This document shows, in pieces, positions 5,474 through 59,033 of a stretch of 64,000 bases of DNA. The notes under the pieces were generated by a model. That model worked only from the letters and a program-made list of their open reading frames with translations, was not told the origin of the DNA and did not search any database. The stretch comes from a phage, in sequence record MZ956763.1; one strand, written 5' to 3'. The first letter of the stretch is position 1. Each line of letters begins with the position of its first letter. The translations under genes were made by a program, and so were the position numbers.

Positions 5474-7840
5474 ATGCGCATGGTAAACGACCACGCAGAA
5501 GTGATTAAGAGTTCAACTTCTTTAGAGACGTCTCAAGCACAGATTACAATGACACCTGAAATGTTCAGCCTTTTGAGTTCAGGTGTATACACATTCAAAG
5601 AAAGGGCAGTGATTCGTGAACTGTCATGTAACGCAGTAGATGCTCAAAAAGAAGCTGGAAAAGAGAACATCCCATTCCATGTGCATTTACCTACTCGTTT
5701 TGAGCCTTACTTTGAAGTTCGTGATTTTGGAACTGGTTTAACCCATGACAAAGTAATGAGTTTGTATCTGAACTACGGGGCTTCTACGAAGAATGACTCT
5801 AATGATTACATTGGTGCAATGGGTATCGGCTCAAAATCCCCATTTGCAATTGCTCAGTCATTCACAGTATCTAGCTATGTTGATGGTGTTGCTAATAAGT
5901 ACTCTGTTTACCTTGAGAATGGTATCCCTCAAGTAACTAAGCTTACTACCAACCAAACAAATGAACCCAATGGTTTAGCTGTACGTGTAGCAGTTGCTGA
6001 CCATCGTATTTCAAAGTTCTTTGAAGAGGCTGGTCACGTATACTCATACTTTGCTGTAAAACCAGAAAGTAACATTGTATATGATGATGTATTAGCAGAT
6101 ATGAATGTCATTGCCCGTGAAGAGGGTGTTTATGATGCTATGATTCATAAGCAAAGCTGGCGTTCTAGTGGCAACAGGACAGAGTTTAATGTGGTGATGG
6201 GTAATATTGCCTACCCAGTGAACATGGAAGCATTACTTGGTGATGATTTCTTCAAAGTCTTGCCAGAGTTTTTCCGTAGGAGCGTAGACCTTGTAAACAT
6301 CTACATGCCTATTGGTTCAGTGGCTATTGCAGCTTCTCGTGAAGCATTGCAGATGAATGACACGACAAAAAATGTTATCATTGAGGCTACTAAAAAGATA
6401 ACTGAAGCCATTACAAAGGATGTTATCAAGAAAGTTAATAGCCAACCTACACTCATGGATGCTGCACAGGCTTATGCTGAGTTACGTTTGAACTCACGAG
6501 AGATGTTTAATGCTGTGTGTCCAAAGCTAGAGTGGGGAGGCGTTAAGCTTGATTCTCTGGAAGAAGAATTACTAAATATTCGTCGTGGAATTATCTACGC
6601 AGAAGACGGCTCAGTCATTTATGAACGTGACGGTAAAGGTAATATTAAGGTTGATAGGAACGGGAACAATATCCCTAAAGTAGATTATCTTTATGACCCA
6701 GTTGCTTATGTCAAGTTCAACTCTTTAGAGAGTAAGATTCGTGCAACATCGCTTTCCTACACTCAAGAGGCAAGTATGTTCAATATCTTTGGCGCAATGC
6801 GTAAAAGCCAAATTGAACAGTTTTTGTTTGTTATCAATGACCGTCGCAATAAAAATGGTACTGAGAAGACTGTAGGACGCAATCAAATCTTGCGTGGTGC
6901 ATGTCGAGACTATGCCAGTGAGTCAAATCTGTTTCACAGATACAACGGTATTGTCTTTGTATTCTCTACTGAGAAAGAGTTAGACGACTTAATCAATCTG
7001 CACAAACTTGATAAAAGCTTGTTAAAGATTGTGAAGATGTCTGATAAGGAACACCATTATCAGCGTAAAGAAGCTGTAAGAGGTGTTGTAAAACTCTGGA
7101 AAGCTGTTCCAGCAGAAGGTGTAGCTTCATACACAGAGGTGTCAGAAGACTTAGACACAATTGAAGAGCCTCAACTTTATATCAAGGCAGTAGGTGATAC
7201 TGTTGATGGTGAATGTTTTTGCTCATCTCCAGATGATGTAGCTAAGTCAGTTGCCAATGTCATTGGAAAGACAGTCTATGTTTTCCGAAAAGCAAATTGG
7301 AAAAAGATACCAGAAGACTGGATTGAAGTAGATGAGAAGCTCTTGAACGACAGCTTAACTGATGTTCACTGGATTAACCATAACAGATATATGACACGTA
7401 TCTACATGAATGGTGTCCTTGACCTCACAAGCAGTTGGATTATTGCCAGAAACTTTACGTTCAATAACAAGAAGATTTCTCGTGGCTATTGCTATTCACG
7501 AGACACAAACAAAACTATCTTCTTAGAAGGTAATGAAGATGCTGTTGATGCAATGTTTGGTAAAATCCAATACGTTGCTGCACCGTTTGCATACACTTAC
7601 ACTATTAGCGTGTTGCAAGATTTGAAAAGTTGTCTTGATAATGATACAAAGCTTTACAAGAAAATTAAGAAAGCTGGTGACCGCATGGTCATTAAGGTGA
7701 CAAACTACCTTTCAAAAAGAAAACAAGAAAACTTCTTGCTTTCTCATTTAGATTGGAATAAAGTGTCACCCATCGAAGTGAGTAAGTTCTTAGGCTTTGA
7801 TGTGAAGTGTGTTCCAGAAGGGACTACAATTTACGATTAA
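5474..7840 (+). CDS. rIIA: rIIA-like protein with N-terminal GHKL (HATPase_c) ATPase domain
   Basis: 788 aa; Bergerat-fold motifs ELSCNAVDA (ExxxNxxDA), DFGTG, GAMGIGSKS near N-terminus; size/architecture like T4 rIIA. Confidence 0.5.
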   Translation: MRMVNDHAEVIKSSTSLETSQAQITMTPEMFSLLSSGVYTFKERAVIRELSCNAVDAQKEAGKENIPFHVHLPTRFEPYFEVRDFGTGLTHDKVMSLYLNYGASTKNDSNDYIGAMGIGSKSPFAIAQSFTVSSYVDGVANKYSVYLENGIPQVTKLTTNQTNEPNGLAVRVAVADHRISKFFEEAGHVYSYFAVKPESNIVYDDVLADMNVIAREEGVYDAMIHKQSWRSSGNRTEFNVVMGNIAYPVNMEALLGDDFFKVLPEFFRRSVDLVNIYMPIGSVAIAASREALQMNDTTKNVIIEATKKITEAITKDVIKKVNSQPTLMDAAQAYAELRLNSREMFNAVCPKLEWGGVKLDSLEEELLNIRRGIIYAEDGSVIYERDGKGNIKVDRNGNNIPKVDYLYDPVAYVKFNSLESKIRATSLSYTQEASMFNIFGAMRKSQIEQFLFVINDRRNKNGTEKTVGRNQILRGACRDYASESNLFHRYNGIVFVFSTEKELDDLINLHKLDKSLLKIVKMSDKEHHYQRKEAVRGVVKLWKAVPAEGVASYTEVSEDLDTIEEPQLYIKAVGDTVDGECFCSSPDDVAKSVANVIGKTVYVFRKANWKKIPEDWIEVDEKLLNDSLTDVHWINHNRYMTRIYMNGVLDLTSSWIIARNFTFNNKKISRGYCYSRDTNKTIFLEGNEDAVDAMFGKIQYVAAPFAYTYTISVLQDLKSCLDNDTKLYKKIKKAGDRMVIKVTNYLSKRKQENFLLSHLDWNKVSPIEVSKFLGFDVKCVPEGTTIYD

Positions 7841-13882: not shown

Positions 13883-13884
13883 TA

Positions 13885-13970
13885 AAGTACTTTACAAGGG
13901 GCTTAAAAGTTGATATCTTAAGCCCCAGATAAAGAGCTTTATCAACAACCTTAAACTAGGAGATTCAAAA
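13885..13970 (+). repeat. reiterated intergenic module (hairpin GGGGCTTA..TAAGCCCC + CCTTAAACTAGGAGATTCAAAAATG)
   Basis: near-identical copies at 14352, 14700, 15767, 16562. Confidence 0.8.
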
Positions 13971-14351: not shown

Positions 14352-14441
14352 TAAAGTACTTTACAGGGGGCTTATAGTTCGATAAAGTAAGCCCCAGATA
14401 AAGAGCTTTACCACTAAATCCTAAATTGGAGAATCTGAAAA
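14352..14441 (+). repeat. reiterated intergenic module (hairpin + RBS)
   Basis: GGGGGCTTATAGTTCGATAAAGTAAGCCCC hairpin, then conserved AGATAAAGAGCTTTACCACTAAATCCTAAA..GGAG. Confidence 0.8.
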
Positions 14442-14699: not shown

Positions 14700-14787
14700 T
14701 AAAGTACTTTACAAGGGGCTTAAAAGTTGATATCTTAAGCCCCAGATAAAGAGCTTTACCACTAAATCCTAAACTGGAGATTCAAAA
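14700..14787 (+). repeat. reiterated intergenic module (hairpin + RBS)
   Basis: same module as 13885. Confidence 0.8.
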
Positions 14788-15410: not shown

Positions 15411-15434
15411 CACTGGTTTTTAGATAGATTAAAT
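15406..15434 (+). promoter_or_regulatory. sigma70-like promoter TTGACA-17-TAAATT
   Basis: followed by conserved leader CATCAACGGGGGGCGATAACCCC hairpin and RBS. Confidence 0.55.
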
Positions 15435-15494
15435 TACACATCAACGGGGGGCGATAACCCCACTACATAAAGCCCTTAAACTAGGAGATTCAAA

Positions 15495-15767: not shown

Positions 15768-15852
15768 AGTACTTTACAAGGGGCTTATAGTTCGATAAAG
15801 TAAACCCCAGATAAAGAGCTTTACCACTAAATCCTAAATTGGAGATTCAAAA
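15767..15852 (+). repeat. reiterated intergenic module (hairpin + RBS)
   Basis: same module as 14352. Confidence 0.8.
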
Positions 15853-16257: not shown

Positions 16258-16265
16258 AATTTCTC

Positions 16266-16294
16266 TTGATTTTGTTTTTTAAAGCAAGTAAATT
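16266..16294 (+). promoter_or_regulatory. sigma70-like promoter TTGATT-17-TAAATT
   Basis: followed by conserved leader ACTAATCAACGGGAGG... hairpin. Confidence 0.55.
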
Positions 16295-16357
16295 ACTAAT
16301 CAACGGGAGGTCATCACCTACCCACTACATAAAACCCTTAAACTAGGAGATTCTAAA

Positions 16358-16561: not shown

Positions 16562-16648
16562 AGTACTTTACAAGGGGCTTATAGTTCGATAAAGTAAGCC
16601 CCAGATAAAGAGCTTTACCACTCAATCCTTAAACTAGGAGATTCAAAA
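16562..16648 (+). repeat. reiterated intergenic module (hairpin + RBS)
   Basis: same module as 14352. Confidence 0.8.
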
Positions 16649-19352: not shown

Positions 19353-19377
19353 AGCCCCTCTGAATAGGGGCTTTTTT
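19353..19377 (+). terminator. intrinsic terminator (second of two tandem hairpins)
   Basis: GGGGCTAAATAGCCCC then AGCCCCTCTGAATAGGGGCT + TTTTTT. Confidence 0.7.
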
Positions 19378-19379
19378 AC

Positions 19380-21010
19380 GTCTTATACAATCCTTATACA
19401 AACCCTTTCCCTTTCCTTCCTAGAATCTTACTAGACCTTAAAAGCAATAACTCTATAGTCTACTCTATAGCCTTTTATCAAATCAACTTAAATATAAGCC
19501 CATAACCCGAAAGGGAAGGGCAACCATTTAAACGCTCTATAAAGCCCTATAACAACCTTATTAACCCAACTTAAGGGATTGCATTATCTCACCCTTAAAA
19601 GCCCTTTATAAAGCTTCCTAGAGCCTTAAAAGAATCTTATAAGGGTGTAAGCTTTATTATCTCGTTAGCTATCTTGTGAATAACTAAAAAGGGCTATGAG
19701 ATAGATTCTATCGAATCCTATTGTTAGTGTCTTAAAAGTATGTTATAGGGGCTATGAAGTAGCTTAAAAGTTGCTTAAAAGTTACGTAAAAGAGGTTATA
19801 AAGTTACGTAAATGCTAGCCCCCTTAACATTTTCTTAACAATTTCTTAACAATCCCTACATAGTTATGCTTTTAAGGCACTTGTTAGCAACTTGTTAGCC
19901 CCTTGTTAAATCTCTGTTAAGACCACGTAAAAGCCTTGTAAGAGTCTTTGACATAGCCTTAAAAGCTCCTGTAAAGCCCTATAAAGAGCTATCCATACAG
20001 TTGAGGGGTAGATACTAGGAAGAGACTTAAAAGGGCTTATAAGGGGCTATAGAGAGCTTTTAAGAGATATGTTTAGAGATTCACTAAGAGGAAAGGGAAT
20101 GATAAGAAAAGAGATAGTGACCATGTTAATAGCTTGTTAAAAAGATTAAACACTTGTTAGGAACTTGTTAATTATCTTTACAAAATAACCCTTAAAAATT
20201 AACTTGTTAGCTCTTGTTAGTCATCTGTTAAGATTCTGTAAAGCCTATTCAGTACTTGTTAGAAAACTGTTACAACCTTGTTAGTTCTGTTAAGAATATG
20301 TTAAGACCTCTGAAGAGATGTTAAAGAGATGTAGCAACTGTTAAGAGATTGTTAATGATATTTTAAAATTTTGCAAAGGGGGTGTTAAGGGGCTGTTAAG
20401 GGCTACCAAGCAGATATACATCCTAATCAGATATTTTTGAGTTCCTTCAAAGACCCTAAAAAATGACTTGATAGTCCTATTTTATAAAAATTTTAAAATT
20501 CTGAATAATTACCTATACAGTCTTCTAAAAATACAGGCATAAACAGGCTTATAAGATACCTTGTTAGTACCGTGTTAGACCTTGTGAGATAAGGTCTGTA
20601 AAGATATTCCTGTTAAGTTTGCTAAAACAGTCTATATAGAGGCTTAGTAATACCTAGTGAACATCTATAGAGGGTATCATAGGTAACCTAGAGATTAAGA
20701 GGTGTATAGGAGCTTCTAAGAGGGTATAGAGAGGTGGTTAAGGTGATTGTATAGGTTGTTAAGAAGGCTTGTTAGGAGAGTGTTTAGAAGGCTTGTTAGA
20801 GGGCTAGTTAGAAGGGTTATACAGAGGGGCTATTAAGACCACTAGATAGTTACTAAGATACTATATAGTACTATATAACTATATAGAGAGTAAGATTAAG
20901 AAGGTTGTTAAGAAGGATAGATATTTTATTCACATATGATGGTGACCCAGAGGTTGGGACAACCGATAAAATTTTATAAAAATTAAAAAGCCCCCAATTA
21001 AGGAGGCTCT
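19380..21010. repeat. 1.6 kb ORF-free region densely packed with short reiterated motifs (YTGTTAR, CTTAAAAG, CTTATAAG, TATAG)
   Basis: no ORF >60 aa; about 30 copies of CTTGTTAG/CTGTTAAG-like words, many CTTAAAAG/TATAAAG words; lies between convergent gene blocks. Confidence 0.8.
20985..21009 (-). terminator. probable intrinsic terminator for leftward block
   Basis: minus-strand hairpin (AGCCTCC/GGGGGCT) followed by T-run. Confidence 0.45.
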
Positions 21011-21019
21011 TAAGATATT

Positions 21020-28106: not shown

Positions 28107-28333
28107 TTTTCAGTTCTCCTGCGATTTATAATTTTGCTGCAATAGAGAAACGAAGTAAACTCACTGGAAGAAACCATTAAGTGTTGTTCACTAGATTGAG
28201 CCATTGCCCTGAAATACATTCCAGTCAAAGCATCATAGTGACTATTCTTTCCAATTGAGGTTATATAGCCATGACTCTTTGCAGTTTGATATAAATCTAT
28301 AATATCTGCGATTTCTAATTGGGAACTACACAT
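28100..28333 (-). CDS. hypothetical protein
   Basis: ORF 77 aa. Confidence 0.4.
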   Translation of the reverse strand: MCSSQLEIADIIDLYQTAKSHGYITSIGKNSHYDALTGMYFRAMAQSSEQHLMVSSSEFTSFLYCSKIINRRRTEKC

Positions 28334-28725
28334 AGATAATCCTCTTGTCTTCTGTAATTTTGAAAGAACAGGTACAGACCAATTTCAGAGGATGAATAGT
28401 AGATTAACTCTACCCTTTTTGATTCCTTACAGTGATTGGTATTCTTACCTTTCTTCGGTTTATTTGATTTTCTCATTAAGTCTCCTTTGTAGAACAAGGC
28501 AGACCTACAGCTTTAAGTAAGATGGTACAGTAATCCATACAACAAGTCAAGAACTATTGCAAGTTAAAAAAGTTGTTGACAAAGTACTTGACAAGGTGTA
28601 GGCTTATAAATACTTAGAAGATAACTTAAAAGGTTCCTCTAAAAAGGCTATTTAAACAGATATCTTTCTGGATATCTATCTTTTATCTTAAAAGCCTTTT
28701 AAGAGGTCTTATAAGAGGCACACCA

Positions 28726-29097
28726 ATGAAAAACAGAACAAACAAAGGCCAGTTTAAAAAAGGCCAGTCTGGAAACCCATCTGGAAGACCCAAAGGCTCT
28801 CGTAACAAAAGTTCACTCGTAAAAGCTCAACTGACCATTGATAATTCTGCTGAGTTTGCTGCAAAGTTGTTTGAGGCGATTGTTACAAGGGACGCTGCTA
28901 AGCTTGCAGAGTTCGGGTTAAACACAGATGACGTAACCATCAAGAGTATGATTGAGGTCGGTAAAACTATCTTTACTCACTCAGCAGGTGAGATGAAAGC
29001 ACTTGCAGCAGACACTAAGAAGACTCCTGATAATGGTGGTCAACAACAGACAGATAACAAACCAACGTTCTCTGCTGTAGCGACTCTCAAAAAATAA
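28726..29097 (+). CDS. hypothetical protein with N-terminal GNPSGRPKG basic motif
   Basis: ORF 123 aa. Confidence 0.5.
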   Translation: MKNRTNKGQFKKGQSGNPSGRPKGSRNKSSLVKAQLTIDNSAEFAAKLFEAIVTRDAAKLAEFGLNTDDVTIKSMIEVGKTIFTHSAGEMKALAADTKKTPDNGGQQQTDNKPTFSAVATLKK

Positions 29098-29178: not shown

Positions 29179-30594
29179 ATGAGCGAGTTATTTAAACATG
29201 CGCACCTTCATGCAGGTCGAACTGAAAATGGTGCTGTAAACCATACTTCATCAATGTCTGCTCTGGTAGACTTCTACAAAGCTGCTGGTTCAAGCCGTAG
29301 CAATGTAGAAATCTTACCAGACCTGTTCTACAAAGCTTTGCATGAGGATGTTGATGTTGCAGTTCGTATTTTACTGCATATGCGAGATGTACGAGAAGGT
29401 ATGGGTGAGCGTAAAGCCTTCAGGACTGTTTTGCTTCAAGCAATTGAAGATAAAGTTTTAGAGTCTACACAGGTTCTTCGCATTATGGATAAGATTGCAG
29501 AACTTGGTCGTTTTGATGACTTCAAAATCTTCGTAGGTACTCGCTTCGAGACAGATGCCTTCAAACATTTAGAAGCAGCATTACTAGACCCTGCAACAGC
29601 AGGTTTGGCAGCTAAGTGGTTGCCACGAGTCAAACCACGTCACAAACAGTTTGTAAAACGTTTCTGCAAGTTTGCCAACTTGAGTGAGAAAGAGTACCGC
29701 ACACTGTTGTCTGCACTATCTGATACAGTTGAGCAAAAAATCTCTGCTAATGAGTTTGGCAAGATTGACTACAGCAAGATTCCTTCACTTGCTGCTGCAC
29801 GTTACCAAAAACTGTTTAACCGTAAAGATGGAGAACGCTACAAAGCTTACATTGAGTCTTTATCAAAAGGTGAGACTAAGATTAACGCTGGTGCTGTTTA
29901 CCCATACGATGTGATTAAATCTGTCAAGCATGGTAATGCAGATGTTGCTAATGAGCAGTGGAAAGCACTACCAAACTGGATGGCAGAAGGTGAAAACATC
30001 TTGTGTATGACTGATGTTTCAAGCTCAATGTCTTGGGTGAATTTTGGCTCCATTACTGCTCTGGATATTGGTGTATCACTTGCATTGTATGTGGCAGAAC
30101 GCAATACAGGTTGCTTTAAGAATGAGTTGATGGTTTATTCAACAAACCCTCACTTCATCGAACTTAGTGGTGATTTACGAAACCGCCATCGTCAGGTGAT
30201 GCGACATGTTGAATATGGTTCAACTAACTTACAAGCAGCTTTTGACCGTATTCTTGAGACAGGTAAAAGAAACAACTTGACTCAGAAAGATATGCCAAGT
30301 AAGCTTATCATCTTCTCCGATATGGAGTTCAATCAGGTTGATGGAGCTAACGGTCGTACAAACTTTGAAGCAATTCAGAGTAAGTACAAGAAAGCTGGAT
30401 ACGAAATGCCACAACTGGTATTCTGGTACTTAGCAAACCGTAATGGTACTTGCGAAGTGTCTGTTAAGGATAACGGTGTAGCAATGGTATCTGGTTTCTC
30501 TCCAGCCACTTTAAAAGCTCTGCTTGGTGGTGAGAAGTTTGACCCAATCAGCGTAATGCTCAAAGCAGTAATGATTGACCGCTATATCTGGTAA
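29179..30594 (+). CDS. vWA-domain protein, candidate Ro60/TROVE-like (Rsr-like) RNA-binding protein
   Basis: 471 aa; MIDAS-like DxSxS (MTDVSSSMS) with downstream T and D (IIFSDMEF); ~270-aa helical N-terminal region; placed immediately upstream of tRNA/structured-RNA cluster. Confidence 0.5.
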   Translation: MSELFKHAHLHAGRTENGAVNHTSSMSALVDFYKAAGSSRSNVEILPDLFYKALHEDVDVAVRILLHMRDVREGMGERKAFRTVLLQAIEDKVLESTQVLRIMDKIAELGRFDDFKIFVGTRFETDAFKHLEAALLDPATAGLAAKWLPRVKPRHKQFVKRFCKFANLSEKEYRTLLSALSDTVEQKISANEFGKIDYSKIPSLAAARYQKLFNRKDGERYKAYIESLSKGETKINAGAVYPYDVIKSVKHGNADVANEQWKALPNWMAEGENILCMTDVSSSMSWVNFGSITALDIGVSLALYVAERNTGCFKNELMVYSTNPHFIELSGDLRNRHRQVMRHVEYGSTNLQAAFDRILETGKRNNLTQKDMPSKLIIFSDMEFNQVDGANGRTNFEAIQSKYKKAGYEMPQLVFWYLANRNGTCEVSVKDNGVAMVSGFSPATLKALLGGEKFDPISVMLKAVMIDRYIW

Positions 30595-30926: not shown

Positions 30927-31003
30927 GACAGAAGACCAATTACAGCAAACTTAATCTTATTCATCTGAAGGTAAATCGGACAAAGAAGAGATTTGGTCTG
31001 GTC
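30927..31003 (+). ncRNA. structured element A (conserved ACAGAAGACC...GGTCTGG terminal stem)
   Basis: 5' GACAGAAGACCAATTACAGCAA, 3' ATTTGGTCTGGTC; family members at 31095, 31576, 31663. Confidence 0.45.
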
Positions 31004-31094: not shown

Positions 31095-31160
31095 ACAGAA
31101 GACCGTTTACAGCAATATTTATTAAATTTTTAGCGGAAAAATTGAAAGATACGGTCTGGT
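31095..31160 (+). ncRNA. structured element B (ACAGAAGACCG...CGGTCTGG stem)
   Basis: same terminal stem motif and TTACAGCAA box as element A. Confidence 0.45.
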
Positions 31161-31575: not shown

Positions 31576-31651
31576 GCAGAAGACCAAATACAGCAAGTTA
31601 CTTAAAATTTCAAGCCAATTTAATTTTGAAAAATTTAAAACTTGGTCTGGC
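31576..31651 (+). ncRNA. structured element C (GCAGAAGACCAAATACAGCAA...TTGGTCTGG)
   Basis: same terminal stem motif family. Confidence 0.45.
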
Positions 31652-31662
31652 TCAACAAATTT

Positions 31663-31794
31663 ACAGAAGACCGTTTACAGCAAAACTTAAACAATCTATT
31701 TCTCGGTAAAGAAAAGGAGAAGGTTCGATTCCTTCACTCGGCAGATGTCGAGTTGGTGTAATGGTAGCACTTAAGATGGTAAACAACGGTCTGG
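31663..31794 (+). ncRNA. structured element D with internal permuted tRNA-like domain (candidate YrlA-like Y RNA)
   Basis: terminal stem ACAGAAGACCGTTT/AAACAACGGTCTGG; internal order T-arm (GAAGG-TTCGATT-CCTTC), acceptor 3' strand ACTCGGC, loop AGAT, acceptor 5' strand GTCGAGT, D-arm GTGTAATGGTAGCAC. Confidence 0.5.
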
Positions 31795-32221: not shown

Positions 32222-32514
32222 AACTAAAATACTTCACAATATGTATAATTCAAACACCAATACATGAGCGTTAGACGTAACACAATGTGGGGAAATTTGT
32301 TGTACATATTCTGAATAGTTTTCGTTGCGTAGCGTCTATTTTGCAAATTTAAAATAAATGCAAACGACAATGTTTTTCTGGCAGTAGCTTGATAGGCTAA
32401 ACACCAGTGAGGTCTTCCAATCCCTCATCAAAGAATTTGGCGTACTCGCCCACGGTATGATTAATAAGGTGGGCATCTTTAAGGGCTTTCTAAGAGAGTC
32501 TTTAAAGATAATTA

Positions 32515-32596
32515 CGGGGCGTATCTCAGCGGTCTTCTAAACCGCCGTTAACCGAGTAAGTGGAGTATGCGGGTTCGAGTCCTGCCGCCTCGACCA
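32515..32596 (+). tRNA. atypical tRNA-like gene, possible tRNA-Arg (anticodon TCT)
   Basis: acceptor CGGGGCG/CGCCTCG + A + CCA, T-arm GCGGG-TTCGAGT-CCTGC, arm GCGGT-CTTCTAA-ACCGC; no canonical D-arm found by eye, 23-nt segment before T-arm. Confidence 0.45.
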
Positions 32597-32923: not shown

Positions 32924-33180
32924 CCTAATAAGATTTAAAGCCAAGCTTCATTCGGATGTCGCTTTGGTATCCCGCGTGTATTGTCGTACACACTGATAAA
33001 ACACCTAGTAGGTGTCACGGAGAAGAGATAATATCAAGCTCTCCAAAGGTTCTAGTCACCGGATTAAACAAGACTATGCAAAGACCTTTTTAGGTCTTTT
33101 TAGAGGGCTTCTAAGGTTATTACAGCTTGTTGTGGAACCTTGTTGCTTAGGTTCTTAGAAGTTCTCTAAAAAGATTTAAT

Positions 33181-33258
33181 GGGAGATTGACGGTAATTGG
33201 TAAACCTACCATCCTTAGAAGTTGGTGTTTGAGGGTTCGAATCCCTTGTCTCCTACCA
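33181..33258 (+). tRNA. tRNA with TAG anticodon (Leu by anticodon) but short variable arm
   Basis: acceptor GGGAGAT/GTCTCCT + A + CCA, anticodon arm CCATC-CTTAGAA-GTTGG, T-arm GAGGG-TTCGAAT-CCCTT, variable ~5 nt. Confidence 0.55.
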
Positions 33259-35870: not shown

Positions 35871-35995
35871 ACAGAGTTATACTTTATAAGAAGACTTATA
35901 CAGTATGTCTCTGACGTACATTGTGGTTTCTCCTTGACGGTCTCTGTGCCGTCTTTTTTAAGGAGAAACAAAATTAATTATTTGGAGAAAACATA

Positions 35996-36196
35996 ATGAG
36001 CGAGACCGTTTATAAAGAACTTTATGAAGCTAATAAAAAGCTAGAATTTATGCAGAATACTATCATGGCAATTGCAGACAGATTGTCTGTAGCAACAGGT
36101 ATTGATATTAAAGAAGCATCTATGGATGCACTTCTTGATGCTGTTGATGCAAAGTTCGAAGTTAAGAAAGAAGAGACTGCGACAGACTCTGAATAA
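35996..36196 (+). CDS. hypothetical small protein
   Basis: ORF 66 aa upstream of terminase. Confidence 0.4.
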   Translation: MSETVYKELYEANKKLEFMQNTIMAIADRLSVATGIDIKEASMDALLDAVDAKFEVKKEETATDSE

Positions 36197-36217
36197 TTCT
36201 ATTTGCGGAGGCGCTTA

Positions 36218-37819
36218 ATGGACTTAAATGCTGTTAAGCAGAAGCGAGTGGAAGATGTTAGGAAAGTCCTAGCTGGAGAGTTGGGGCTTTCTGATGAAGT
36301 AAAAGAAATTATCAAATCATTCGGTAAAGACCCCTCTAAATTCCTTCCAACTCAAATTCTGACTTTATTAAGATACACACCAGACCAAGTTCGCCTTATC
36401 TTTAAATTGATGACTGATAAGAACTATGTAGCCCCTCAGCCGGGTTCTCAAGAGGTCTTTTTAAACACTAATGCTGACTTGGTTCTCTATGGTGGTGCTG
36501 CTGGTGCTGGTAAGACTGCTGCATTGTTAATGGACTCTTTAAGATTTATTGAAGACCCTAACTATAATGCTGTGTATTTCCGTCGAAATACAACACAGCT
36601 ACAAGGTGGTTTATGGCCTGCTGCAAAGAAACTATTTGGTAAGTTTGGTGGGGTCCCTCACGAGCAGAAAATGACTATCACATTCCCTTCTGGGGCAACT
36701 ATCAAGTTTACCTACCTAGAACTTGAAAAGCACGCTGAAGGTCATCAGGGTATTGAATACTCAGCTATTTACTTTGACGAAGGTACACACTTCTCCGCTT
36801 CACAGATTTCATACCTACAAACACGTCTACGTTCTGGTGCTGAAGGTGATTCATACATGAAAATTTCCATGAACCCAGACAGAGACCACTTTATTTACGA
36901 TTGGGTAGAACCATTCTTAGATGAAGAAGGTTACCCAGACCCTGAAAAGTGTGGTCGTATTCGTTGGTATGTAATGAATGATGGTGTGATGGTTTCTGAT
37001 TGGGAGAGAGACAAGATTCTTGAAATGTTCCCTCTTGAGATTCCTCAAACATATACATTCATCTCTGGTACGATTGATGATAACCCAATTCTTGACTTCT
37101 TAGAACCAAAGTATCGCGGTAAGTTGGAAAACAACACTCCTGTAAACGTTGCAAGACTTCGTTTCGGTAACTGGAAGGCTCGTGCAGAAGGTTCAAACTA
37201 TTGGCAAAGACAATGGTGTGAAATTGTTGATTCACTCCCAGAAGATGTATTCGATGTCAGAGCATGGGACTTAGCAGCAACTTTACCATCTGAGGTTAAC
37301 CCTAATCCAGACTGGACAGCGGGTGTTAAGATGGGTAAATCTAAAAAAGACGGTTGCTATTATATCATTGATGTAGTAAGATTTAGAGATAGACCCTCTG
37401 GAGTCGAAACACAAATTAATTTGACTGCTGAAAGTGACGGTAAGCGAACTGGTATTTTTATCCCTCAAGACCCAGGCGCTGCTGGTAAATCCTACGCAAC
37501 ATCCCTCATCAGGAAACTTGCCGAGAAAGGCTATCGTGCAAGAGCTAAACCAACAAATAAAGATAAAGTTACCCGATTTGCGGGGTTTTCTGCTGCTTCT
37601 GAAGCTGGACTTGTAAAAGTTTTGAGAGGTAGTTGGAACGAAGCTTATTTCCAAGAGCTTGAAGGCTTTTGTGGTGATGGCAAAACTAAAGATGACCAAG
37701 TGGATGCTACCAGTGATGCTTTCAACAGTCTTAACGAAGTTAAATTATTCAAGCCACCATCAATGGGTGCTCACACAGACTTAGTGAGAGGAAACCCATA
37801 TGAGGGGCTTAGACGTTGA
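36218..37819 (+). CDS. terminase large subunit
   Basis: Walker A LYGGAAGAGKTAAL; size ~530 aa; followed by portal-sized gene. Confidence 0.8.
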   Translation: MDLNAVKQKRVEDVRKVLAGELGLSDEVKEIIKSFGKDPSKFLPTQILTLLRYTPDQVRLIFKLMTDKNYVAPQPGSQEVFLNTNADLVLYGGAAGAGKTAALLMDSLRFIEDPNYNAVYFRRNTTQLQGGLWPAAKKLFGKFGGVPHEQKMTITFPSGATIKFTYLELEKHAEGHQGIEYSAIYFDEGTHFSASQISYLQTRLRSGAEGDSYMKISMNPDRDHFIYDWVEPFLDEEGYPDPEKCGRIRWYVMNDGVMVSDWERDKILEMFPLEIPQTYTFISGTIDDNPILDFLEPKYRGKLENNTPVNVARLRFGNWKARAEGSNYWQRQWCEIVDSLPEDVFDVRAWDLAATLPSEVNPNPDWTAGVKMGKSKKDGCYYIIDVVRFRDRPSGVETQINLTAESDGKRTGIFIPQDPGAAGKSYATSLIRKLAEKGYRARAKPTNKDKVTRFAGFSAASEAGLVKVLRGSWNEAYFQELEGFCGDGKTKDDQVDATSDAFNSLNEVKLFKPPSMGAHTDLVRGNPYEGLRR

Positions 37820-55474: not shown

Positions 55475-56623
55475 ATGGCAGTAGGTGAAATTCAAATTAG
55501 TGCCTTGCCTCAAGCAGCCTTACCAATTGACCTTAGTGATATCTTCCATCTTAAGCAGGGTATTGAGGATAAGAGATGTACTCTTGAGCAATTACTTGCT
55601 CCACACTCAAGCCTAAGAAATAACCCTCATGGTGTTACTAAAACACAAATTGGTTTAGATAATGTTATTAATGCTCTTCAGTTAGTTGCTGCAAATAACT
55701 TATCAGATATTGTTAATGTAGCTGAGGCAAGAGCAAATCTACAGATTATGTCTTCAGAAGAGGTCAATAGCCTTATTCAACAGCATATTAATGACAAGAG
55801 CAACCCACACAATACAACTAAGGCACAGGTTGGTTTAAGTAATGTTCAGAACTGGACAACATCTAATCTGTATAACGAAGATGCAGATAAGTATGCTACA
55901 GCAAGAGCAGTAAATAACTTGTACAAGGCTGTTCAGGCTTCTTATCCAGTAGGTACTATCCATCTTTCTATGAATCCTGAAAACCCTTCTACATATTTAA
56001 TTTGTGGAGGTACTTGGGAGTTAGTTTCAAAAGGTAGAGCACTTGTAGGTTATGATAGTGCTTCTAGACCAGTTGGTTCAACGTTTGGTTCACAAACTAC
56101 TGCACTGACAGTTAACAACATTCCTGCACATACCCACTCAGTGTACGTCACTGGTGGTGGTCATACTCATGGTGCAACGGCCTCTATCAGTGCTTTTGAC
56201 TATGGCACTAAAGGGACTACAACGTTTGACTATGGAACCAAGACTGTATCTACTTATGACTATGGCAACAGAACAACAAGTGCTGCTGGCTTAACACAAA
56301 CAACATTCATTAACCGTGGCTATGCTGATGGTGGCTGGAGAGGTTTATCGGTTGAGGGGGCAAGCTATGACCCAAGAGCTACGCTGACAACAGCTAACAA
56401 CCACACTCACTCTGTAGCAATTGGTGCGCATAATCATACGGTTGGTATTGGTGCTCACAGCCATACTGTTGCAATTGGTTCTCACAACCACTCAGCAACA
56501 GTAACAGTAACCGGAGCAGGTGAGCATTCTCACTCTGGCACAACTGGTACAACTGGTTCTGGTCAAGCATTTAGTGTTGAACAACCATCTTTCGTATTGT
56601 ATGTATGGCAGAGAACAGCTTAA
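55475..56623 (+). CDS. tail fibre protein with C-terminal His-x-His repeats
   Basis: [41 protein letters not shown] repeats; Gly/Thr-rich. Confidence 0.55.
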
Positions 56624-56632
56624 TTTCTTTAC

Positions 56633-56653
56633 AGGGGCTATAAAGCCCCTTTT
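56633..56653 (+). terminator. intrinsic terminator
   Basis: AGGGGCT-ATAA-AGCCCCT + TTTT. Confidence 0.55.
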
Positions 56654-56669
56654 AAGAGGAAAATTTATA

Positions 56670-59033
56670 ATGGCAGATTACAAGTTGAGTGAATTAAACT
56701 CAATCGACACAATCCGTTCAGACGACCTTCTTCATGTCAGGGTTAAAAAGAGACCTGAAATGTTAGGTGATGAAGACCGTCGAATGACCTATCAAGACTT
56801 CTTAGCGTCTTTTAAACTTGAGAGATTTGTTCAGATTGCTGGCAGCACTATGACTGGTGACTTAGGTATTGTTAAGTTACTTCACGGTGGTAAGACAGTC
56901 TTTGACCCAACAGGTTCTTCTGAGATTAATATTGGGGATGTTTTAAAGGCTTTTAAAATCAACGCAAATGGTCTTAAACTGACTATTGCAGATGCTTCAA
57001 GGTCTGCAACCGTTTACCATACTCTGAATAAGCCAAGTCCTAATGAACTTGGGATGAGAACTGATGAAGAGAATGATGCAAGATATGCAAGATTAGCTGT
57101 AAATAACACCTTTAGGGTCACTCAGACTATTGTTGCTGACAATGTAGGGTTAACTCTTAAGAATTTGACACAAAATCAACCTTTGTATATCCGTGGCATG
57201 GACACTGCGAATGTACCTAGGTGGTGGTTAGGTGTAGGTGGCGTAGGCTCTACTGATGTAGCCTTAAACAACAGCTTCTCTGGGACACAAATTATCCTTT
57301 CGAGGTCAGTGATTACGGCTAACAAGAATCTCCAAATCACTGGTCAAGTTCAACCTTCAGATTTCTCTAACTTAGATGCTAGGTACTTCACTCAGACAGC
57401 AGCTAATCAGAGATTTGCACAGTTAACTGGTGATAACACATTCAGTGGTGTGAACACATTTAACCAAACTTTATCAATTCTGGCGAATAGTGGAGCCTTA
57501 AGGTTAAAAAATACTGTAGCAGATTCTGCGCTATACATTAAAGCTGAAGCTAATAATGGCTCTGGTAAGTGGTATGTAGGTAATGGTGATAGCACGCCAT
57601 CTGTATTAATCCACAACTATGTGTATGGCTCTAGTCTTAGACTTGATAATGGTTATATTGAAGTTAACAAGCAACTTAAAGTTGTTGGTCAAGTTCAACC
57701 TTCAGATTGGACTAACATCGACTCTAGATACATTCCAGCAGCTACTTTGAGCAATCTTGCTAAGCTAAGTGATGTAAACACTTTCAGGTCTGCGCAAGTT
57801 ATCAACCAGAATGGCTCACTGTTACGGCTAAAGAACACCACACAAGATAATGAGCTATACATTGCTGGTCATAATGCTGATAATGCGAGAAGATGGTACA
57901 TTGGTAGCGGGGAAAGAGACAACCCAACAAGACTTATTATCCACAACGACAGAACTTTAACTACGATTTATATGCAAGATGATTTCTTGCTGAATAAAAC
58001 TGTTAAAATTACTGGTCAAGTTCAACCATCTGATTGGTCTAACTTAGATGCTAGATACTTCACTCAGGCAGCAGCTAATCAGAGATTTATGTATGCAGGT
58101 TCTACAGGAGAAGCTACAGAGCAGAATGCAGATGGTGTGGCATGGAACGCTAAAACAGGCTTATATAATGTAACCTCAACAAATGCTGATTACACAGCAC
58201 TTGTGTTTCAAATGTATCAGGGACAGGGAGTGTCCTCTTCTACTGCCTGTGCGCAATTAAAGTTCCAGTATAAGAACGGTGGGATGTGGTACAGAACATC
58301 TGTAGATAGTAAAGGCTTTGAAGCTAAGTGGTCTAAGATTTACACAGAAGCACAGAAGCCAACACCTTCAGAGCTTGGTGCATACACTAAAACAGAAACT
58401 GACCAGAAGATTGCACAGGCAGTAAGTGACTCTACAGACCTTAATAAAATCTATCCAGTGGGTATTGTGACATGGTTTAACAGTAATGTTGACCCTAATA
58501 CAGCACTGCCTGGTCTAACTTGGACGTACCTCAATAATGGTGTTGGTAGAACTATCAGAATTGCAGCAGCAAACGGTTCAGATGTTGCTACAACTGGTGG
58601 TTCAGACTCTGTGACGTTAGCTGTTGGGAACTTACCTTCACACACTCACAGTTTTTCTGCTACCACTTCATCTTTTGATTACGGTACAAAAAACACTAAC
58701 ACGACTGGTGCTCACACTCACTCTGTAAGTGGCTCTACTTCATCTGCTGGTAACCACAACCACTCTATTTCGTGGATTGGTCAGAACTCACAGCACTATT
58801 CTGGTGGTGGTGGTGCATACGTTGGTTCAGGGCCGGGTTACACTGATGCTAACGGTGCTCACACCCACTCTGTAAGTGGTACTGCTGCTTCTGCTGGTAA
58901 CCACGCTCACTCAGTTGGTATTGGTGCTCACAGCCACACAGTAAGTGGTAACACTGGTGGTACAGGTTCTGGTTCAGCATTTAGTGTTACTAACCAGTTC
59001 TACAAGCTAATGGCTTGGGTGAGAACTGCTTAA
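56670..59033 (+). CDS. long tail fibre protein with internal repeats and C-terminal His-x-His repeats
   Basis: start at ATG 56670 (MADYKLSEL); triple repeat ITGQVQPSD(F/W)(S/T)N(L/I)D(A/S)RY; C-terminal [34 protein letters not shown]. Confidence 0.6.

What the first reader, a model, noticed from the sequence alone, without database searches (positions are those of the whole stretch)
28334..28725. CTTATAAG / CTTAAAAG words recur in gene-upstream regions, suggesting a phage-specific promoter or regulator site
The divergent intergenic region before 28726 contains CTTATAAATAC, CTTAAAAGG, CTCTAAAAAGG, CTTAAAAGCC, TTTTAAGAGG and CTTATAAGAGG; similar words sit upstream of the terminase (35880-35910), within tRNA-cluster spacers (32480-32510, 33110-33180) and are massively amplified in the 19.4-21.0 kb region. 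This resembles how phage middle/late promoters are defined by a short phage-specific box.
Basis: inference. Interest (0 to 1): 0.45.

Follow-up and report, generated by a model that had tools for sequence, protein, structure and literature searches.

The report
Genome-end word array, not promoter
The recurring CTTAAAAG-like words in this Felix O1-type phage are real and non-random. They mainly build a 1.6-kb array of 11-base units around the physical end of the genome, plus a cluster in front of the probable small-terminase gene, and they do not behave like a phage-specific promoter box.

Summary
The window is a Felixounavirus (Felix O1-like myovirus). CTTAWAAG occurs 38 times against 9 expected and is about 10-fold denser in intergenic than in coding DNA.

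The promoter reading does not hold.
1. The "massively amplified" stretch (19.38-20.96 kb) lies between two convergent terminators. It contains the genome's direct terminal repeat, mapped to 19818-20407 from two relatives whose records carry identical ends. It consists of about 11-bp phased, strand-polar words, like the short-repeat arrays beside the T7 terminal repeat.
2. The tRNA-spacer and terminase-upstream clusters are inverted repeats that fold as stable hairpins, with a few wobble or compensatory changes in relatives.
3. Isolated intergenic hits sit in terminator or cassette hairpins.
4. Late structural genes carry the word only at chance level.

The cluster at 28603-28718 is conserved across the subfamily. 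It starts at the -10 of a conserved tandem-TTGACA promoter and precedes a DUF5681 gene. I infer that gene to be the missing small terminase: it sits directly upstream of TerL in four unrelated phage contigs, and its invariant core is an HMGA-type AT-hook.

Best reading: these are phased A/T-core protein-binding words, most likely read by that terminase subunit. This is inferred and untested.

The parts
19353..19378 (+). Intrinsic terminator that ends the rightward early gene block (AGCCCCTCTGAATAGGGGCT followed by a T run).
   Evidence: sequence
19380..19817 (+). Left flank of the terminus array. It holds phased words, mostly of the CTTAAAAG / CTATAAAG / CGTAAAAG type, and in virion DNA it would lie just inside the right-hand terminal repeat.
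19818..20407 (+). Direct terminal repeat (DTR, 590 bp), present once in this collapsed assembly. It is filled with phased words: TTAACA x3, TTGTTAG x4, CTTAAAAG, and many [ACT]TGTTA[AG]. At 19928-19944 it holds a 16/17 copy of the leader module TAAAAGCCTTTTAAGAG.
   Evidence: The Citrobacter phage HP1 570-bp annotated repeat is identical at both record ends and maps here. In ECP2307 the first 592 nt equal the last 592 nt and map here. Further record ends fall here.
20408..20960 (+). Right flank of the terminus array. It holds CTATAGAG / CTATATAG and TTGTTAG / TTGTTAAG words at 11-13 bp spacing. The boundary motif GATATTTTAAAATTTTGCAAAGG...GGGCTACC|AAGCAG is conserved in distant relatives.
20986..21011 (-). 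Intrinsic terminator that ends the leftward gene block 28333->21020.
28576..28604 (+). Rightward sigma-70-like promoter. Tandem TTGACA boxes lie at 28576-28581 and 28588-28593, and a TAGGCT -10 lies at 28599-28604, 17 bp after the first box. Both boxes are invariant from Felix O1 to Hafnia phage SarahDanielle.
   Evidence: Predicted as P41 in the Felix O1 paper and annotated as a promoter in AYO145A.
28603..28657 (+). Five direct words 9-14 bp apart: CTTATAAA, CTTAGAAG, CTTAAAAG, CTCTAAAAAG, CTATTTAAAC. ACTTAAAAG (28624-28632) is invariant in all six aligned phages.
28658..28677 (+). Small perfect hairpin or palindrome, AGATATCT-TTCT-GGATATCT, at the tip of the leader stem-loop.
28686..28718 (+). 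Three words: CTTAAAAG, CTTTTAAG and CTTATAAG. The first two form a perfect 19-bp palindrome, TCTTAAAAG-C-CTTTTAAGA (28686-28704). The last overlaps the Shine-Dalgarno sequence AAGAGG (28713-28718).
28625..28715 (+). Long imperfect inverted repeat, read as a leader RNA stem-loop of 33 pairs. The first word group pairs with the second.
   Evidence: dG -28.4, z -3.2. The fold is kept in 7 Felix, Susp- and Mooglevirus sequences, with 1 compensatory pair and one pair broken in a single sequence.
28726..29097 (+). DUF5681 protein of 123 aa, the probable small terminase. Its N-terminal arm carries the invariant sequence G-NP-x-GRPKGSRNK, an extended AT-hook, followed by two long helices.
   Evidence: Pfam E 2.3e-14. 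The best PDB profile hit is the HMG-I(Y) AT-hook peptide 2EZD. Synteny with TerL is shown.
32473..32509 (+). Hairpin ATCTTTAAGGGCTTTC-TAA-GAGAGTCTTTAAAGAT, directly 5' of the tRNA-like element at 32515-32593 (annotated tRNA-Arg in relatives).
   Evidence: z -4.1, 0 of 200 shuffles. Mordin changes C-G to U.G and G.U to G-C. SUSP2 has a different hairpin at the same place.
33085..33183 (+). Long hairpin whose arms carry TTTTTAGAGGGCTTCTAAGG / CTTAGAAGTTCTCTAAAAAG. It lies directly 5' of tRNA-Leu(tag) at 33181.
   Evidence: dG -40.8, z -4.6, 0 of 200 shuffles
35872..35913 (+). Hairpin CAGAGTTATACTTTATAAG-AAGA-CTTATACAGTATGTCTCTG, lying between two terminator-like hairpins upstream of the 66-aa ORF and TerL.
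   Evidence: z -3.8. In Mordin TATAAG/CTTATA becomes TATGGG/CCTATA, which keeps the pairing and destroys the word.
36203..37819 (+). Large terminase gene (TerL), 7.1 kb downstream of the DUF5681 gene.
   Evidence: Annotated as terminase in the best-matching phage records.

Best explanation
The CTT(A/T)nAAG-type words are not a promoter box. They are short units with an A/T core and G/C flanks, set about one helical turn (11 bp) apart, and they act as phased protein-binding sites on DNA.

The main array of roughly 140 units over 1.6 kb fills and flanks the 590-bp direct terminal repeat. It is therefore the concatemer-junction and packaging region of the genome, analogous to the short-repeat arrays beside the T7 terminal repeat. 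A second, small array of eight words starts at the -10 of the conserved sigma-70-type promoter of the first gene of the rightward tRNA/packaging/structural block.

That gene encodes a DUF5681 protein. I infer it to be the group's unrecognised small terminase, with an N-terminal AT-hook arm suited to reading A/T cores through the minor groove. The proposed mechanism is that an oligomer of this protein binds successive words on one face of the helix at the terminus and marks it for TerL cutting and packaging. Binding to the copy of the same words at its own promoter or leader would then tune its own synthesis.

The word-bearing clusters in the tRNA spacers and before TerL are a separate matter. 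They are A/U-rich arms of RNA hairpins, most likely processing or stability elements, and isolated hits are parts of terminators.

Shown here: the enrichment, the phasing, the strand polarity, the location of the terminal repeat, the conservation, the hairpin stability, the DUF5681-TerL synteny elsewhere, and the AT-hook sequence. Inferred: that DUF5681 is TerS in this phage, that it binds these words, and that it regulates itself.
For: Terminus:
- The HP1 DTR (570 bp, identical copies) and the ECP2307 terminal redundancy (592 bp) both map to 19818-20407.
- A 608-bp DTR was measured experimentally in the sister phage UAB_Phi87 (PMC4837284).
- Many GenBank records start or end at these two coordinates.
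- The array lies between convergent terminators.

Phasing and polarity:
- Autocorrelation is 0.39 at lag 11, with harmonics at 21-22 and 32, against about 0.22-0.25 at lags 4-7 of the same stretch and about 0.25-0.29 in coding controls.
- TGTTA occurs 30 times against 4 on the other strand, CTTGTTA 13 against 0, and CTTAAAA 9 against 2.

Selection on the words:
- Word positions are 87% conserved against 79% for spacer positions in five relatives (p 8e-9). In HP1 the figures are 84% against 68%.

Same architecture elsewhere:
- Distant Ounavirinae have it with partly different words: TGTAAAG in SarahDanielle and TGTTAAC/CTTAACA in Wc4-1.
- T7 has CCTAAAG/CTTAAAG/CATAAAG words at 10-14 bp inside and next to its terminal repeat.

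The terS-upstream cluster:
- It is 98-99% conserved within the genus, 90% in Suspvirus and 85% in Mooglevirus.
- ACTTAAAAG is invariant. It lies in a stem in Felix-type phages but in a loop in SarahDanielle.
- phiEa104 and a marine relative carry direct 11-bp word repeats at the same place. In phiEa104 these do not fold; the marine repeats, (CATTTAATAAA)x4 plus CTTAATAAG, were not folded.
- The leader module TAAAAGCCTTTTAAGAG recurs 16/17 inside the DTR.

The protein:
- It matches DUF5681.
- The GRP core and its flanks are invariant in 32 homologues.
- The best PDB match of the profile is the HMGA AT-hook PRGRPKGSKNKG.
- The DUF5681 gene directly precedes and overlaps TerL in four unrelated contigs.
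- It lies 2 kb upstream of TerL plus a Mu-type portal in a marine relative.
- No small terminase has been identified in Felix O1 or UAB_Phi87.
Against: - There are no binding, packaging or transcript data for any of this.
- The commonest array word (TGTTAR) is absent from the terS leader, so a single reader protein for all words is not guaranteed.
- AT-hooks have low sequence specificity.
- The AT-hook match has E = 0.25, because the match is short.
- The AF2 model is only moderately confident (pLDDT 69), and Foldseek finds no significant TerS match. TerS of G20c and P74-26 appear only at E > 1.
- In this phage the ORF directly upstream of TerL is a different 66-aa protein (35996-36196), which is a positional rival for TerS.
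- The leader words also form a stable hairpin with one compensatory pair, so an RNA-level role could explain their conservation on its own.
Confidence: 0.5

Rival explanations
1. RNA-level explanation. The words matter only as A/U-rich arms of hairpins in the long rightward transcript. These would be leader and spacer stem-loops that guide RNase III, RNase E or RNase P processing, protect 5' ends or mask the ribosome-binding site. The terminus array is then an unrelated feature that happens to use similar words.
For: - All four gene-proximal clusters fold far better than shuffles, with z from -3.2 to -4.6.
- Two of them abut tRNA 5' ends.
- The leader stem keeps its pairing in 7 sequences, with one U-A/C-G/U-G pair and one pair broken in a single sequence.
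- In Mordin, hairpin 32473-32509 changes C-G to U.G and G.U to G-C. Hairpin 35872-35913 changes A-U to G-C while destroying the word.
- SUSP2 has a different hairpin at the same tRNA-Arg position.
- The last leader word overlaps the Shine-Dalgarno sequence.
Against: - It does not explain the 1.6-kb strand-polar array of direct repeats.
- ACTTAAAAG is invariant although it is paired in Felix-type phages and looped in SarahDanielle.
- phiEa104 and the marine relative have direct, phased words before the same gene. The phiEa104 stretch gave z +1.0; the marine stretch was not folded.
- Covariation is thin, at 1-2 events per hairpin.
- There is no Rfam match.
Confidence: 0.25
2. The words are the recognition box of a phage-specific middle or late promoter, read by a modified host RNA polymerase as with the T4 late TATAAATA or MotA boxes.
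For: - The words resemble -10 hexamers (TATAAG, TATAAA).
- They are 10-fold enriched in intergenic DNA.
- The 28.6-kb region heads the block that contains the packaging and structural genes.
- How Felix O1 times its transcription is stated to be unknown.
Against: - The largest array sits between convergent terminators at the genome end.
- The structural module has hits only at chance level.
- There is no fixed distance or order relative to promoters or start codons across relatives.
- The word before TerL is lost in Mordin while its pairing is kept.
- T4-type TATAAATA occurs only twice, below the chance expectation of 4.3.
- No phage sigma or RNA-polymerase modifier has been reported for Felix O1.
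- Strong TTGACA-type host promoters are present throughout the block.
Confidence: 0.08
3. Host-factor or DNA-shape explanation. The phased words make curved DNA, or bind a host protein such as a nucleoid protein or RNA polymerase, at the first DNA to enter the cell. They would control genome entry, end protection, replication initiation or silencing, and the phage terminase would not be involved.
For: - The 11-bp phasing of A/T cores is the classic signature of bent DNA.
- The array is at the physical ends.
- T7, an unrelated phage of the same hosts, has very similar words at its ends, which could point to a shared host partner.
- TTGACA boxes occur inside the arrays of Felix and SarahDanielle.
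Against: - The dominant word changes between genera that infect related hosts: TGTTAR, TGTAAAG and TTAACA. This fits a co-evolving phage protein better than a fixed host factor.
- The same words recur in front of the probable terS gene in every relative examined.
- No match to a specific host-factor consensus was established here.
Confidence: 0.12

Closest known systems
Short-repeat arrays (SRL/SRR) beside the terminal repeat of phage T7 (Dunn & Studier 1983, recalled from my own knowledge; sequence checked)
   Same: Both have a direct terminal repeat of a few hundred bp at most. In both, 7-8-bp words with a TAAAG-like core lie inside the repeat and immediately beside it, all in one orientation and spaced about 10-14 bp apart. 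The T7 words are CCTAAAG, CTTAAAG and CATAAAG, and T7 even has CCTTGTTGTTAGCC. The function is still not firmly assigned in either phage.
   Different: T7 is an unrelated podovirus. Its arrays hold about a dozen units each over roughly 170 bp. Here there are roughly 140 units over 1.6 kb, with several word families in blocks and a tighter 11-bp period. The similarity is one of style, not homology.
Small-terminase recognition sites (lambda cosB R sites, SPP1 pacL/pacR boxes, P22 and Sf6 pac), from my own knowledge
   Same: They are repeated short sites, often phased with the helix and associated with bent DNA. An oligomeric TerS binds them next to the cut site. In pac phages the site lies in or near terS itself, which echoes the word cluster at the terS gene here.
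   Different: The known sites have 3-10 repeats, not about 140. Known TerS proteins bind through helix-turn-helix or related folds, not an AT-hook arm. Here terS lies 8 kb from the terminus and 7 kb from TerL. Binding is untested.
   Same: Both are short A/T-rich words enriched in intergenic DNA of a virulent phage that uses the host RNA polymerase.
   Different: The words here have no fixed position relative to starts, are absent from the late-gene module, and have their biggest cluster at a transcription-free genome end. No phage sigma or activator is known, and TATAAATA itself is under-represented.
HMGA (HMG-I/Y) AT-hook, PDB 2EZD/2EZE
   Same: The invariant core of the DUF5681 protein, P-x-GRPKGS-R-NK, matches the second HMGA AT-hook PRGRPKGSKNKG at 10 of 12 residues. 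That peptide binds the minor groove of short A/T runs.
   Different: HMGA is a eukaryotic chromatin protein with three hooks and no folded domain. DUF5681 has one hook followed by two long helices and occurs in phages. The match is too short to be statistically significant (E 0.25).
RNase III / processing hairpins of phage polycistronic transcripts (T7 early region; phage tRNA-cluster precursors), from my own knowledge
   Same: These are long imperfect stem-loops between genes or tRNAs within one long transcript, and some overlap ribosome-binding sites.
   Different: No cleavage data exist here, there is no Rfam family, and the stems here share a common word vocabulary with a DNA array at the genome end.

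Membership tests
Phage-specific middle/late promoter box | The motif lies upstream of many middle or late genes or operons. | tested here: not met
   The 36-59.7 kb structural block has 4 hits, against about 3.4 expected by chance. The contexts are coding sequence or terminator hairpins.
Phage-specific middle/late promoter box | The motif has a fixed distance and orientation relative to the transcription start or other promoter elements. | tested here: not met
   In Felix, Susp- and Mooglevirus the words begin at the -10 of the TTGACA promoter and run downstream of it. In phiEa104 they lie upstream of the proximal promoter. In the clusters they occur in both orientations.
Phage-specific middle/late promoter box | The phage encodes a sigma factor or RNA-polymerase modifier that reads the box. 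| not tested
   The Felix O1 genome paper reports none. I did not screen all ORFs of the window.
Phage-specific middle/late promoter box | Transcripts initiate next to the box at middle or late times. | not testable with these tools
   No TSS or RNA-seq study of a Felix O1-like phage was found.
Direct-terminal-repeat genome end | The same sequence is present at both ends of linear virion DNA. | tested here: met
   In HP1 positions 1-570 equal 88766-89335. In ECP2307 the first 592 nt equal the last 592 nt. Both map to window 19818-20407. A 608-bp DTR was shown by Bal31 digestion and run-off sequencing in UAB_Phi87.
Direct-terminal-repeat genome end | The ends have been determined for this very phage. 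| not testable with these tools
   The window is an assembled sequence with the repeat collapsed, and no reads are available.
T7-type short-repeat arrays at the terminal repeat | Arrays of 7-8-bp words in one orientation, about 10-14 bp apart, abut both sides of the repeat. | tested here: met
   for the window; for T7
T7-type short-repeat arrays at the terminal repeat | Common descent with, or the same binding protein as, T7. | tested here: inconclusive
   The word cores are alike (xTAAAG), but the phages are unrelated and no binding protein is known for either.
Small terminase subunit (TerS) | The gene lies directly upstream of the large terminase gene. | tested here: inconclusive
   This is met for DUF5681 genes in four unrelated contigs, L023/24, L025, L021/22 and L033. 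In this window the gene is 7.1 kb upstream of TerL, separated by a Ro60-like gene and the tRNA cluster. In a marine relative it is 2 kb upstream.
Small terminase subunit (TerS) | Small protein with an N-terminal DNA-binding part and a helical oligomerisation core; fold similar to solved TerS. | tested here: inconclusive
   The AF2 model has an arm at residues 1-27 and helices at 28-54 and 72-97, with pLDDT 69. The best Foldseek PDB hits all have E > 1. TerS of G20c and P74-26 rank 3, 5 and 7.
Small terminase subunit (TerS) | The protein binds the packaging-recognition DNA and stimulates TerL. | not testable with these tools
   This needs biochemistry.
AT-hook DNA-binding motif | A G-R-P core flanked by basic residues. 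| tested here: met
   G20, R21 and P22 are invariant, and K12, G13, N17 and N27 are invariant in 32 homologues. The alignment to HMGA hook 2 is.
AT-hook DNA-binding motif | Minor-groove binding to A/T runs. | not testable with these tools
   This needs binding assays.
Structured RNA element (leader or processing hairpin) | Folding energy is well beyond that of shuffled sequence. | tested here: met
   z values are -3.2, -4.1, -4.6 and -3.8.
Structured RNA element (leader or processing hairpin) | Compensatory base changes are seen across relatives. | tested here: inconclusive
   There is one compensatory pair in the leader. There is one compensatory change plus wobble changes in two other hairpins. 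Variation is too low for statistics.
Structured RNA element (leader or processing hairpin) | Match to a curated RNA family. | tested here: not met
   Rfam finds only tRNAs at the gathering threshold and nothing relevant at E <= 1.

The most novel reading that the evidence does not exclude
DUF5681 is the long-missing small terminase of the Felix O1 group, and of many uncultured phages. It would be a new kind of TerS that reads DNA through an HMGA-like AT-hook arm. The 1.6-kb array of about 140 helically phased A/T words around the terminal repeat would be its loading platform. The same words at its own promoter would couple terS expression to free terminase levels. By extension, this would give a testable function for the unexplained short-repeat arrays at T7-type genome ends.
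Probability: 0.3. Interest if true: 0.6.

Novelty: new variant of a known kind. Interest (0 to 1): 0.42.

Why it matters
Felix O1-like phages are widely used for Salmonella typing, biocontrol and therapy. Even so, their small terminase, their packaging signal and their transcription control are undefined.

Placing the terminal repeat inside a conserved array of phased words gives a concrete set of experiments on how these phages recognise and cut their genome. Naming an AT-hook DUF5681 protein as the likely small terminase adds to that set. The placement also helps when annotating and orienting the hundreds of deposited genomes, many of which are broken arbitrarily inside this array.

It also removes a tempting but unsupported "phage-specific promoter" annotation.

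Tried and rejected
- **T4-type late promoter.** TATAAATA overlaps the first word at 28605, but it occurs only twice in the window against 4.3 expected. It is also not conserved in Suspvirus or SarahDanielle. Rejected.
- **Rfam.** Neither the gathering threshold nor E <= 1 gives anything at the word clusters except tRNAs and chance hits.
- **Sequence searches for the DUF5681 protein.** PDB sequence search with the single protein gave nothing. NCBIfam gave nothing. PHROGs gave only families of unknown function, for this protein and for distant members. Foldseek against the PDB gave nothing significant.
- **Literature.** I found no TSS or RNA-seq study of Felix O1-like phages, no paper naming a small terminase in Felixounavirus, and only one paper mentioning DUF5681, as a virion-associated hypothetical protein. 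Two searches were wasted on terms that were too broad.
- **A/T-versus-G/C Fourier periodicity scan.** The array ranks high but is not unique, since early-region windows score similarly, so I did not use it as evidence.
- **Co-variation of array words and leader words across genera.** Wc4-1 is suggestive, with TTAACA-type words in both places. SarahDanielle is not clean: TGTAAAG dominates its array but is absent from its leader. Inconclusive.
- **Start of the UAB_Phi87 GenBank record as a guide to the ends.** The record starts inside the tRNA cluster and is 66 bp shorter than the published genome, so it was not usable.
Full report
**What the window is.** The window is 90-98% identical to Escherichia and Salmonella phages of the genus Felixounavirus, the Felix O1-like myoviruses. 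It carries 24 tRNA genes at 30.76-35.77 kb. It also holds a TerL/portal/structural block on the + strand from 36.2 kb, a leftward block from 28333 to 21020, and a rightward early block ending at 19314.

**Checking the observation.**
- CTTAWAAG gives 38 matches against 9.1 +/- 3.5 in shuffles, with 0 of 100 shuffles reaching 38.
- By unique position the density is 1.92 per kb in intergenic DNA, 0.18 per kb in coding DNA, and 8.2 per kb in the 19.38-20.96 kb stretch.
- Shuffling the intergenic segments themselves leaves 11 observed against 1.4 expected (0 of 1000). Without the 28.6-kb region it is 7 against 1.2.

**The "massively amplified" region is the physical end of the genome.**
- The stretch 19380-20960 has no ORF of 60 aa or more. 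It lies between a + strand terminator (19353-19378) and a - strand terminator (21011-20986), that is, between the 3' ends of two convergent gene blocks. That is the wrong place for a promoter array.
- Many GenBank records of relatives begin or end inside it, at positions that map to about 19804-19820 or about 20406-20407.
- Citrobacter phage HP1 (Mooglevirus) has an annotated 570-bp repeat at both record ends. The two copies are identical and map to window 19818-20407.
- In the Felixounavirus ECP2307 the first 592 nt of the record equal the last 592 nt, and they map to the same coordinates.
- The sister phage UAB_Phi87 was shown by Bal31 digestion and run-off sequencing to have a 608-bp direct terminal repeat (PMC4837284).
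- The window is therefore a collapsed, circularly permuted assembly in which the 590-bp terminal repeat appears once. It is flanked by 438 bp on the left and about 550 bp on the right of the same kind of sequence.

**Anatomy of the array.**
- Base autocorrelation peaks at lag 11 (0.39, against about 0.22-0.25 at lags 4-7 of the same stretch and about 0.25-0.29 in coding controls), with harmonics at 21-22 and 32. TRF finds many local 10-12-bp arrays.
- The words are strand-polar. TGTTA occurs 30 times against 4 on the other strand, CTTGTTA 13 against 0, and CTTAAAA 9 against 2.
- The words come in blocks. CTTAAAAG, CTATAAAG and CGTAAAAG dominate the left flank. TTAACA x3, TTGTTAG x4, CTTAAAAG-type words and many [ACT]TGTTA[AG] fill the repeat. 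CTATAGAG, CTATATAG and TTGTTAG dominate the right flank.
- Across five relatives, word positions are better conserved than the spacers between them: 87% against 79% (p 8e-9), and 84% against 68% in the most distant relative.
- Distant subfamily members have the same architecture at the same convergent junction, with partly different words. Hafnia phage SarahDanielle has about 2 kb dominated by TGTAAAG plus CTTAAAAG and CTATAAAG. Pectobacterium phage Wc4-1 has TGTTAAC and CTTAACA.
- The right boundary motif GATATTTTAARATTTTGCAAAGG...TAC|AAGCA is conserved in HP1 and SarahDanielle.

**The locus of the finding (28334-28725).**
- This 392-bp divergent intergenic region is as conserved as coding sequence. 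It is 95% identical or better in 211 of 254 records, 90% in Suspvirus (a 47%-GC genus) and 85-86% in Mooglevirus.
- In a six-phage alignment the following survive even in SarahDanielle: two tandem TTGACA boxes (28576-28581, 28588-28593), the word ACTTAAAAG (28624-28632), and the TCTTAnAnG / TTAAnA words before the start codon. SarahDanielle has a 26-nt insertion that adds more words.
- The first TTGACA has a TAnnnT hexamer 17 bp downstream in all six phages (TAGGCT at 28599-28604). This is the P41 promoter predicted for Felix O1 and annotated in AYO145A.
- Eight words follow, beginning at the -10 and spaced 9-14 bp apart, at 28603, 28613, 28625, 28637, 28648, 28687, 28696 and 28708.
- Two of them form a perfect 19-bp palindrome (28686-28704). 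The last overlaps the Shine-Dalgarno sequence AAGAGG at 28713-28718.
- The first and second word groups are complementary. As RNA, 28625-28715 folds into a 33-pair stem-loop (dG -28.4, z -3.2). Seven Felix, Susp- and Mooglevirus sequences keep this fold, with one compensatory pair and one pair broken in a single sequence.
- The words matter beyond pairing. ACTTAAAAG is in a stem in Felix-type phages but in a loop in SarahDanielle. In Erwinia phage phiEa104 three direct words, CTTAAAAG, TTTAAAG and CTGTAAAG, lie 11-12 bp apart upstream of the proximal promoter and do not fold (z +1.0). In a marine relative the same position carries (CATTTAATAAA)x4 plus CTTAATAAG words as direct 11-bp repeats.
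- The leader module TAAAAGCCTTTTAAGAG has a 16/17 copy inside the terminal repeat at 19928-19944.

**The gene behind the words.**
- ORF 28726-29097 (123 aa) is a DUF5681 protein (Pfam E 2.3e-14). Every library I searched lists it without a function.
- In 32 homologues the invariant core is F-KKG-SGNP-x-GRPKGSRNK.
- The best PDB match of that profile is the second AT-hook of HMG-I(Y), PRGRPKGSKNKG, from the DNA complex 2EZD. It matches 10 of 12 residues, with E 0.25 because the match is so short.
- The AF2 model has an extended arm at residues 1-27 and then two long helices (pLDDT 69). Foldseek finds nothing significant. Small terminases of G20c and P74-26 appear only among hits with E > 1.
- Genomic context elsewhere is more telling. 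In four unrelated phage or prophage contigs the DUF5681 gene lies directly upstream of, and overlaps, the large terminase gene. TerL was recognised by Pfam Terminase_6N/3/3C or by phrog_38 at E 5e-72 and 2e-99.
- In a marine relative with a Mu-type portal, the DUF5681-like gene lies 2 kb upstream of TerL.
- No small terminase has been identified for Felix O1 or UAB_Phi87, and no paper in the library names one for the genus.
- I therefore infer that gene 28726 is the small terminase, separated from TerL in this lineage by the Ro60-like gene and the tRNA cluster.
- A caveat: the ORF directly upstream of TerL here is a different 66-aa acidic protein (35996-36196).

- 32473-32509 is a near-perfect hairpin (z -4.1) that ends 5 nt before a tRNA-like element, which relatives annotate as tRNA-Arg.
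- 33085-33183 is a long hairpin (dG -40.8, z -4.6) that abuts tRNA-Leu.
- 35872-35913 is a hairpin (z -3.8) between two terminator-like hairpins.
- In Mordin the first of these shows C-G to U.G and G.U to G-C changes. The third changes TATAAG/CTTATA to TATGGG/CCTATA, which keeps the pairing but destroys the word. SUSP2 has a different hairpin at the tRNA-Arg position.
- These three clusters are best read as RNA stem-loops whose A/U-rich arms merely resemble the words.

**Isolated intergenic hits.**
- The sites at 2734, 9040, 17239 and 56649 are the GGGGC...GCCCC stems and U-tracts of terminators.
- 13902 and 14719 lie in the hairpin of a repeated early-region cassette whose other copies lack the word.
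- 18014 and 22346 lie in other hairpins.

**Testing the promoter idea.**
- A phage-specific box should sit at a fixed place before many middle or late genes.
- The structural block (36-59.7 kb) has 4 hits, about the chance number, and none is in a plausible promoter context.
- The position of the words relative to sigma-70-type promoters differs among relatives.
- T4-type TATAAATA is under-represented.
- Host-type TTGACA promoters are abundant in the rightward block.
- No transcript-start data exist to settle the question. I put the promoter reading at under 10%.

**Most likely mechanism.**
- The words are units with an A/T core and G/C flanks, spaced one helical turn apart. That is the layout expected for an oligomeric protein that contacts one face of the DNA.
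- The array marks the concatemer junction. The same words head the gene of a protein that is, by synteny, a small terminase and carries a minor-groove A/T-reading arm.
- I propose that this protein loads on the terminus array to direct TerL cutting at 19818 and 20407, and that it also binds its own promoter or leader.
- The terminus location, phasing, polarity, conservation, synteny and hook sequence are shown here. The binding and the regulation are inferred.
- The chief rival is that the leader words act only as an RNA stem. The two are not exclusive.

**Comparison with known systems.**
- The closest analogue is the pair of short-repeat arrays beside the T7 terminal repeat. The T7 left end shows CCTAAAG, CTTAAAG and CATAAAG words 10-14 bp apart, inside and just after the 160-bp repeat. 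The SRL/SRR naming and their unresolved function are from my own knowledge of Dunn & Studier 1983.
- TerS sites such as lambda cosB or SPP1 pacL/pacR are the functional analogue (my own knowledge).
- The differences here are the scale (about 140 units over 1.6 kb), the several word families arranged in blocks, and the candidate AT-hook reader.

**Verdict.** The promoter interpretation is not supported, and the binding-site interpretation remains plausible. The terminal repeat itself is known for this genus. The phased-word array around it and the DUF5681 = small terminase inference are, as far as I could search, undescribed. I rate this a new variant of a known kind, of moderate interest.

Noticed in passing
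window 30930-30948, 31097-31115, 31578-31596, 31665-31683 (with partners such as TTGGTCTGG about 55-65 nt downstream): Four copies of AGAAGACC-NNN-TACAGCAA lie in tRNA-cluster spacers, against 0.03 expected. In the three spacers where a GGTCTGG partner follows (30930, 31097, 31578) the module closes a stem-loop of about 70 nt. The fourth copy (31665) folded differently in the stretch tested. They lie just downstream of the Ro60/TROVE-like gene 29179-30594 and could be Y-RNA-like partners of that protein. Rfam finds no Y RNA family.
   Followed up: partly
window 13883-13970, 14352-14441, 14700-14787, 15768-15852, 16562-16648 (variants at 15411-15494, 16258-16357): A repeated intergenic cassette of about 85 bp lies between small early genes. 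It reads TAAAGTACTTTACA, then a GGGGCTTA...TAAGCCCC hairpin, then AGATAAAGAGCTTTACCACT...AGGAGATTCAAAAATG. It resembles the promoter/stem-loop (PeSL) cassettes of T4-type phages. It contains the 57-bp repeat noted in the Felix O1 paper.
   Followed up: partly
window 32515-32593: A tRNA-like element scores 31.7 bits against Rfam tRNA, just above threshold, and ARAGORN misses it. Mordin and SUSP2 annotate it as tRNA-Arg, so the window probably has 25 tRNA genes.
   Followed up: partly
window 28726-29097; loci L021-L025, L031-L033: DUF5681, a Pfam family of unknown function, sits directly upstream of the large terminase gene in four unrelated phage contigs and carries an HMGA-like AT-hook. It is probably an unrecognised class of small terminase.
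   Followed up: yes
window 20355-20415; L012 about 5895-5955; L004 about 510-580: The sequence at the right boundary of the terminal repeat, GATATTTTAARATTTTGCAAAGG ... G(G/T)TAC(C/T)|AAGCA, is conserved from Felix-type phages to Mooglevirus and Hafnia phage SarahDanielle. It is a candidate terminase cut or recognition site.
   Followed up: partly
window 28315-28497 (- strand): A 60-aa TTG-start ORF lies inside the conserved intergenic region. It is annotated in Felix O1 (ORF84) and SUSP2 (gp125) but not in Mordin or Sf19. Whether it is a real gene or whether the conservation is regulatory was not resolved.
   Followed up: no
GenBank records of relatives: Many deposited Felixounavirus genomes are opened at arbitrary points, and several break inside the terminus array. 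Some annotate spurious ORFs there, such as SARAHDANIELLE_77 and the 'unknown' ORFs of AF320576. The array evidently disturbs both assembly and annotation.
   Followed up: no
window 56417-56490: A 27-bp tandem repeat (2.7 copies, 76% matches) lies near the junction of ORFs 55475-56623 and 56520-59033, in the tail-fibre region. It corresponds to the repeats shared by Felix O1 gp76 and gp77.
   Followed up: no
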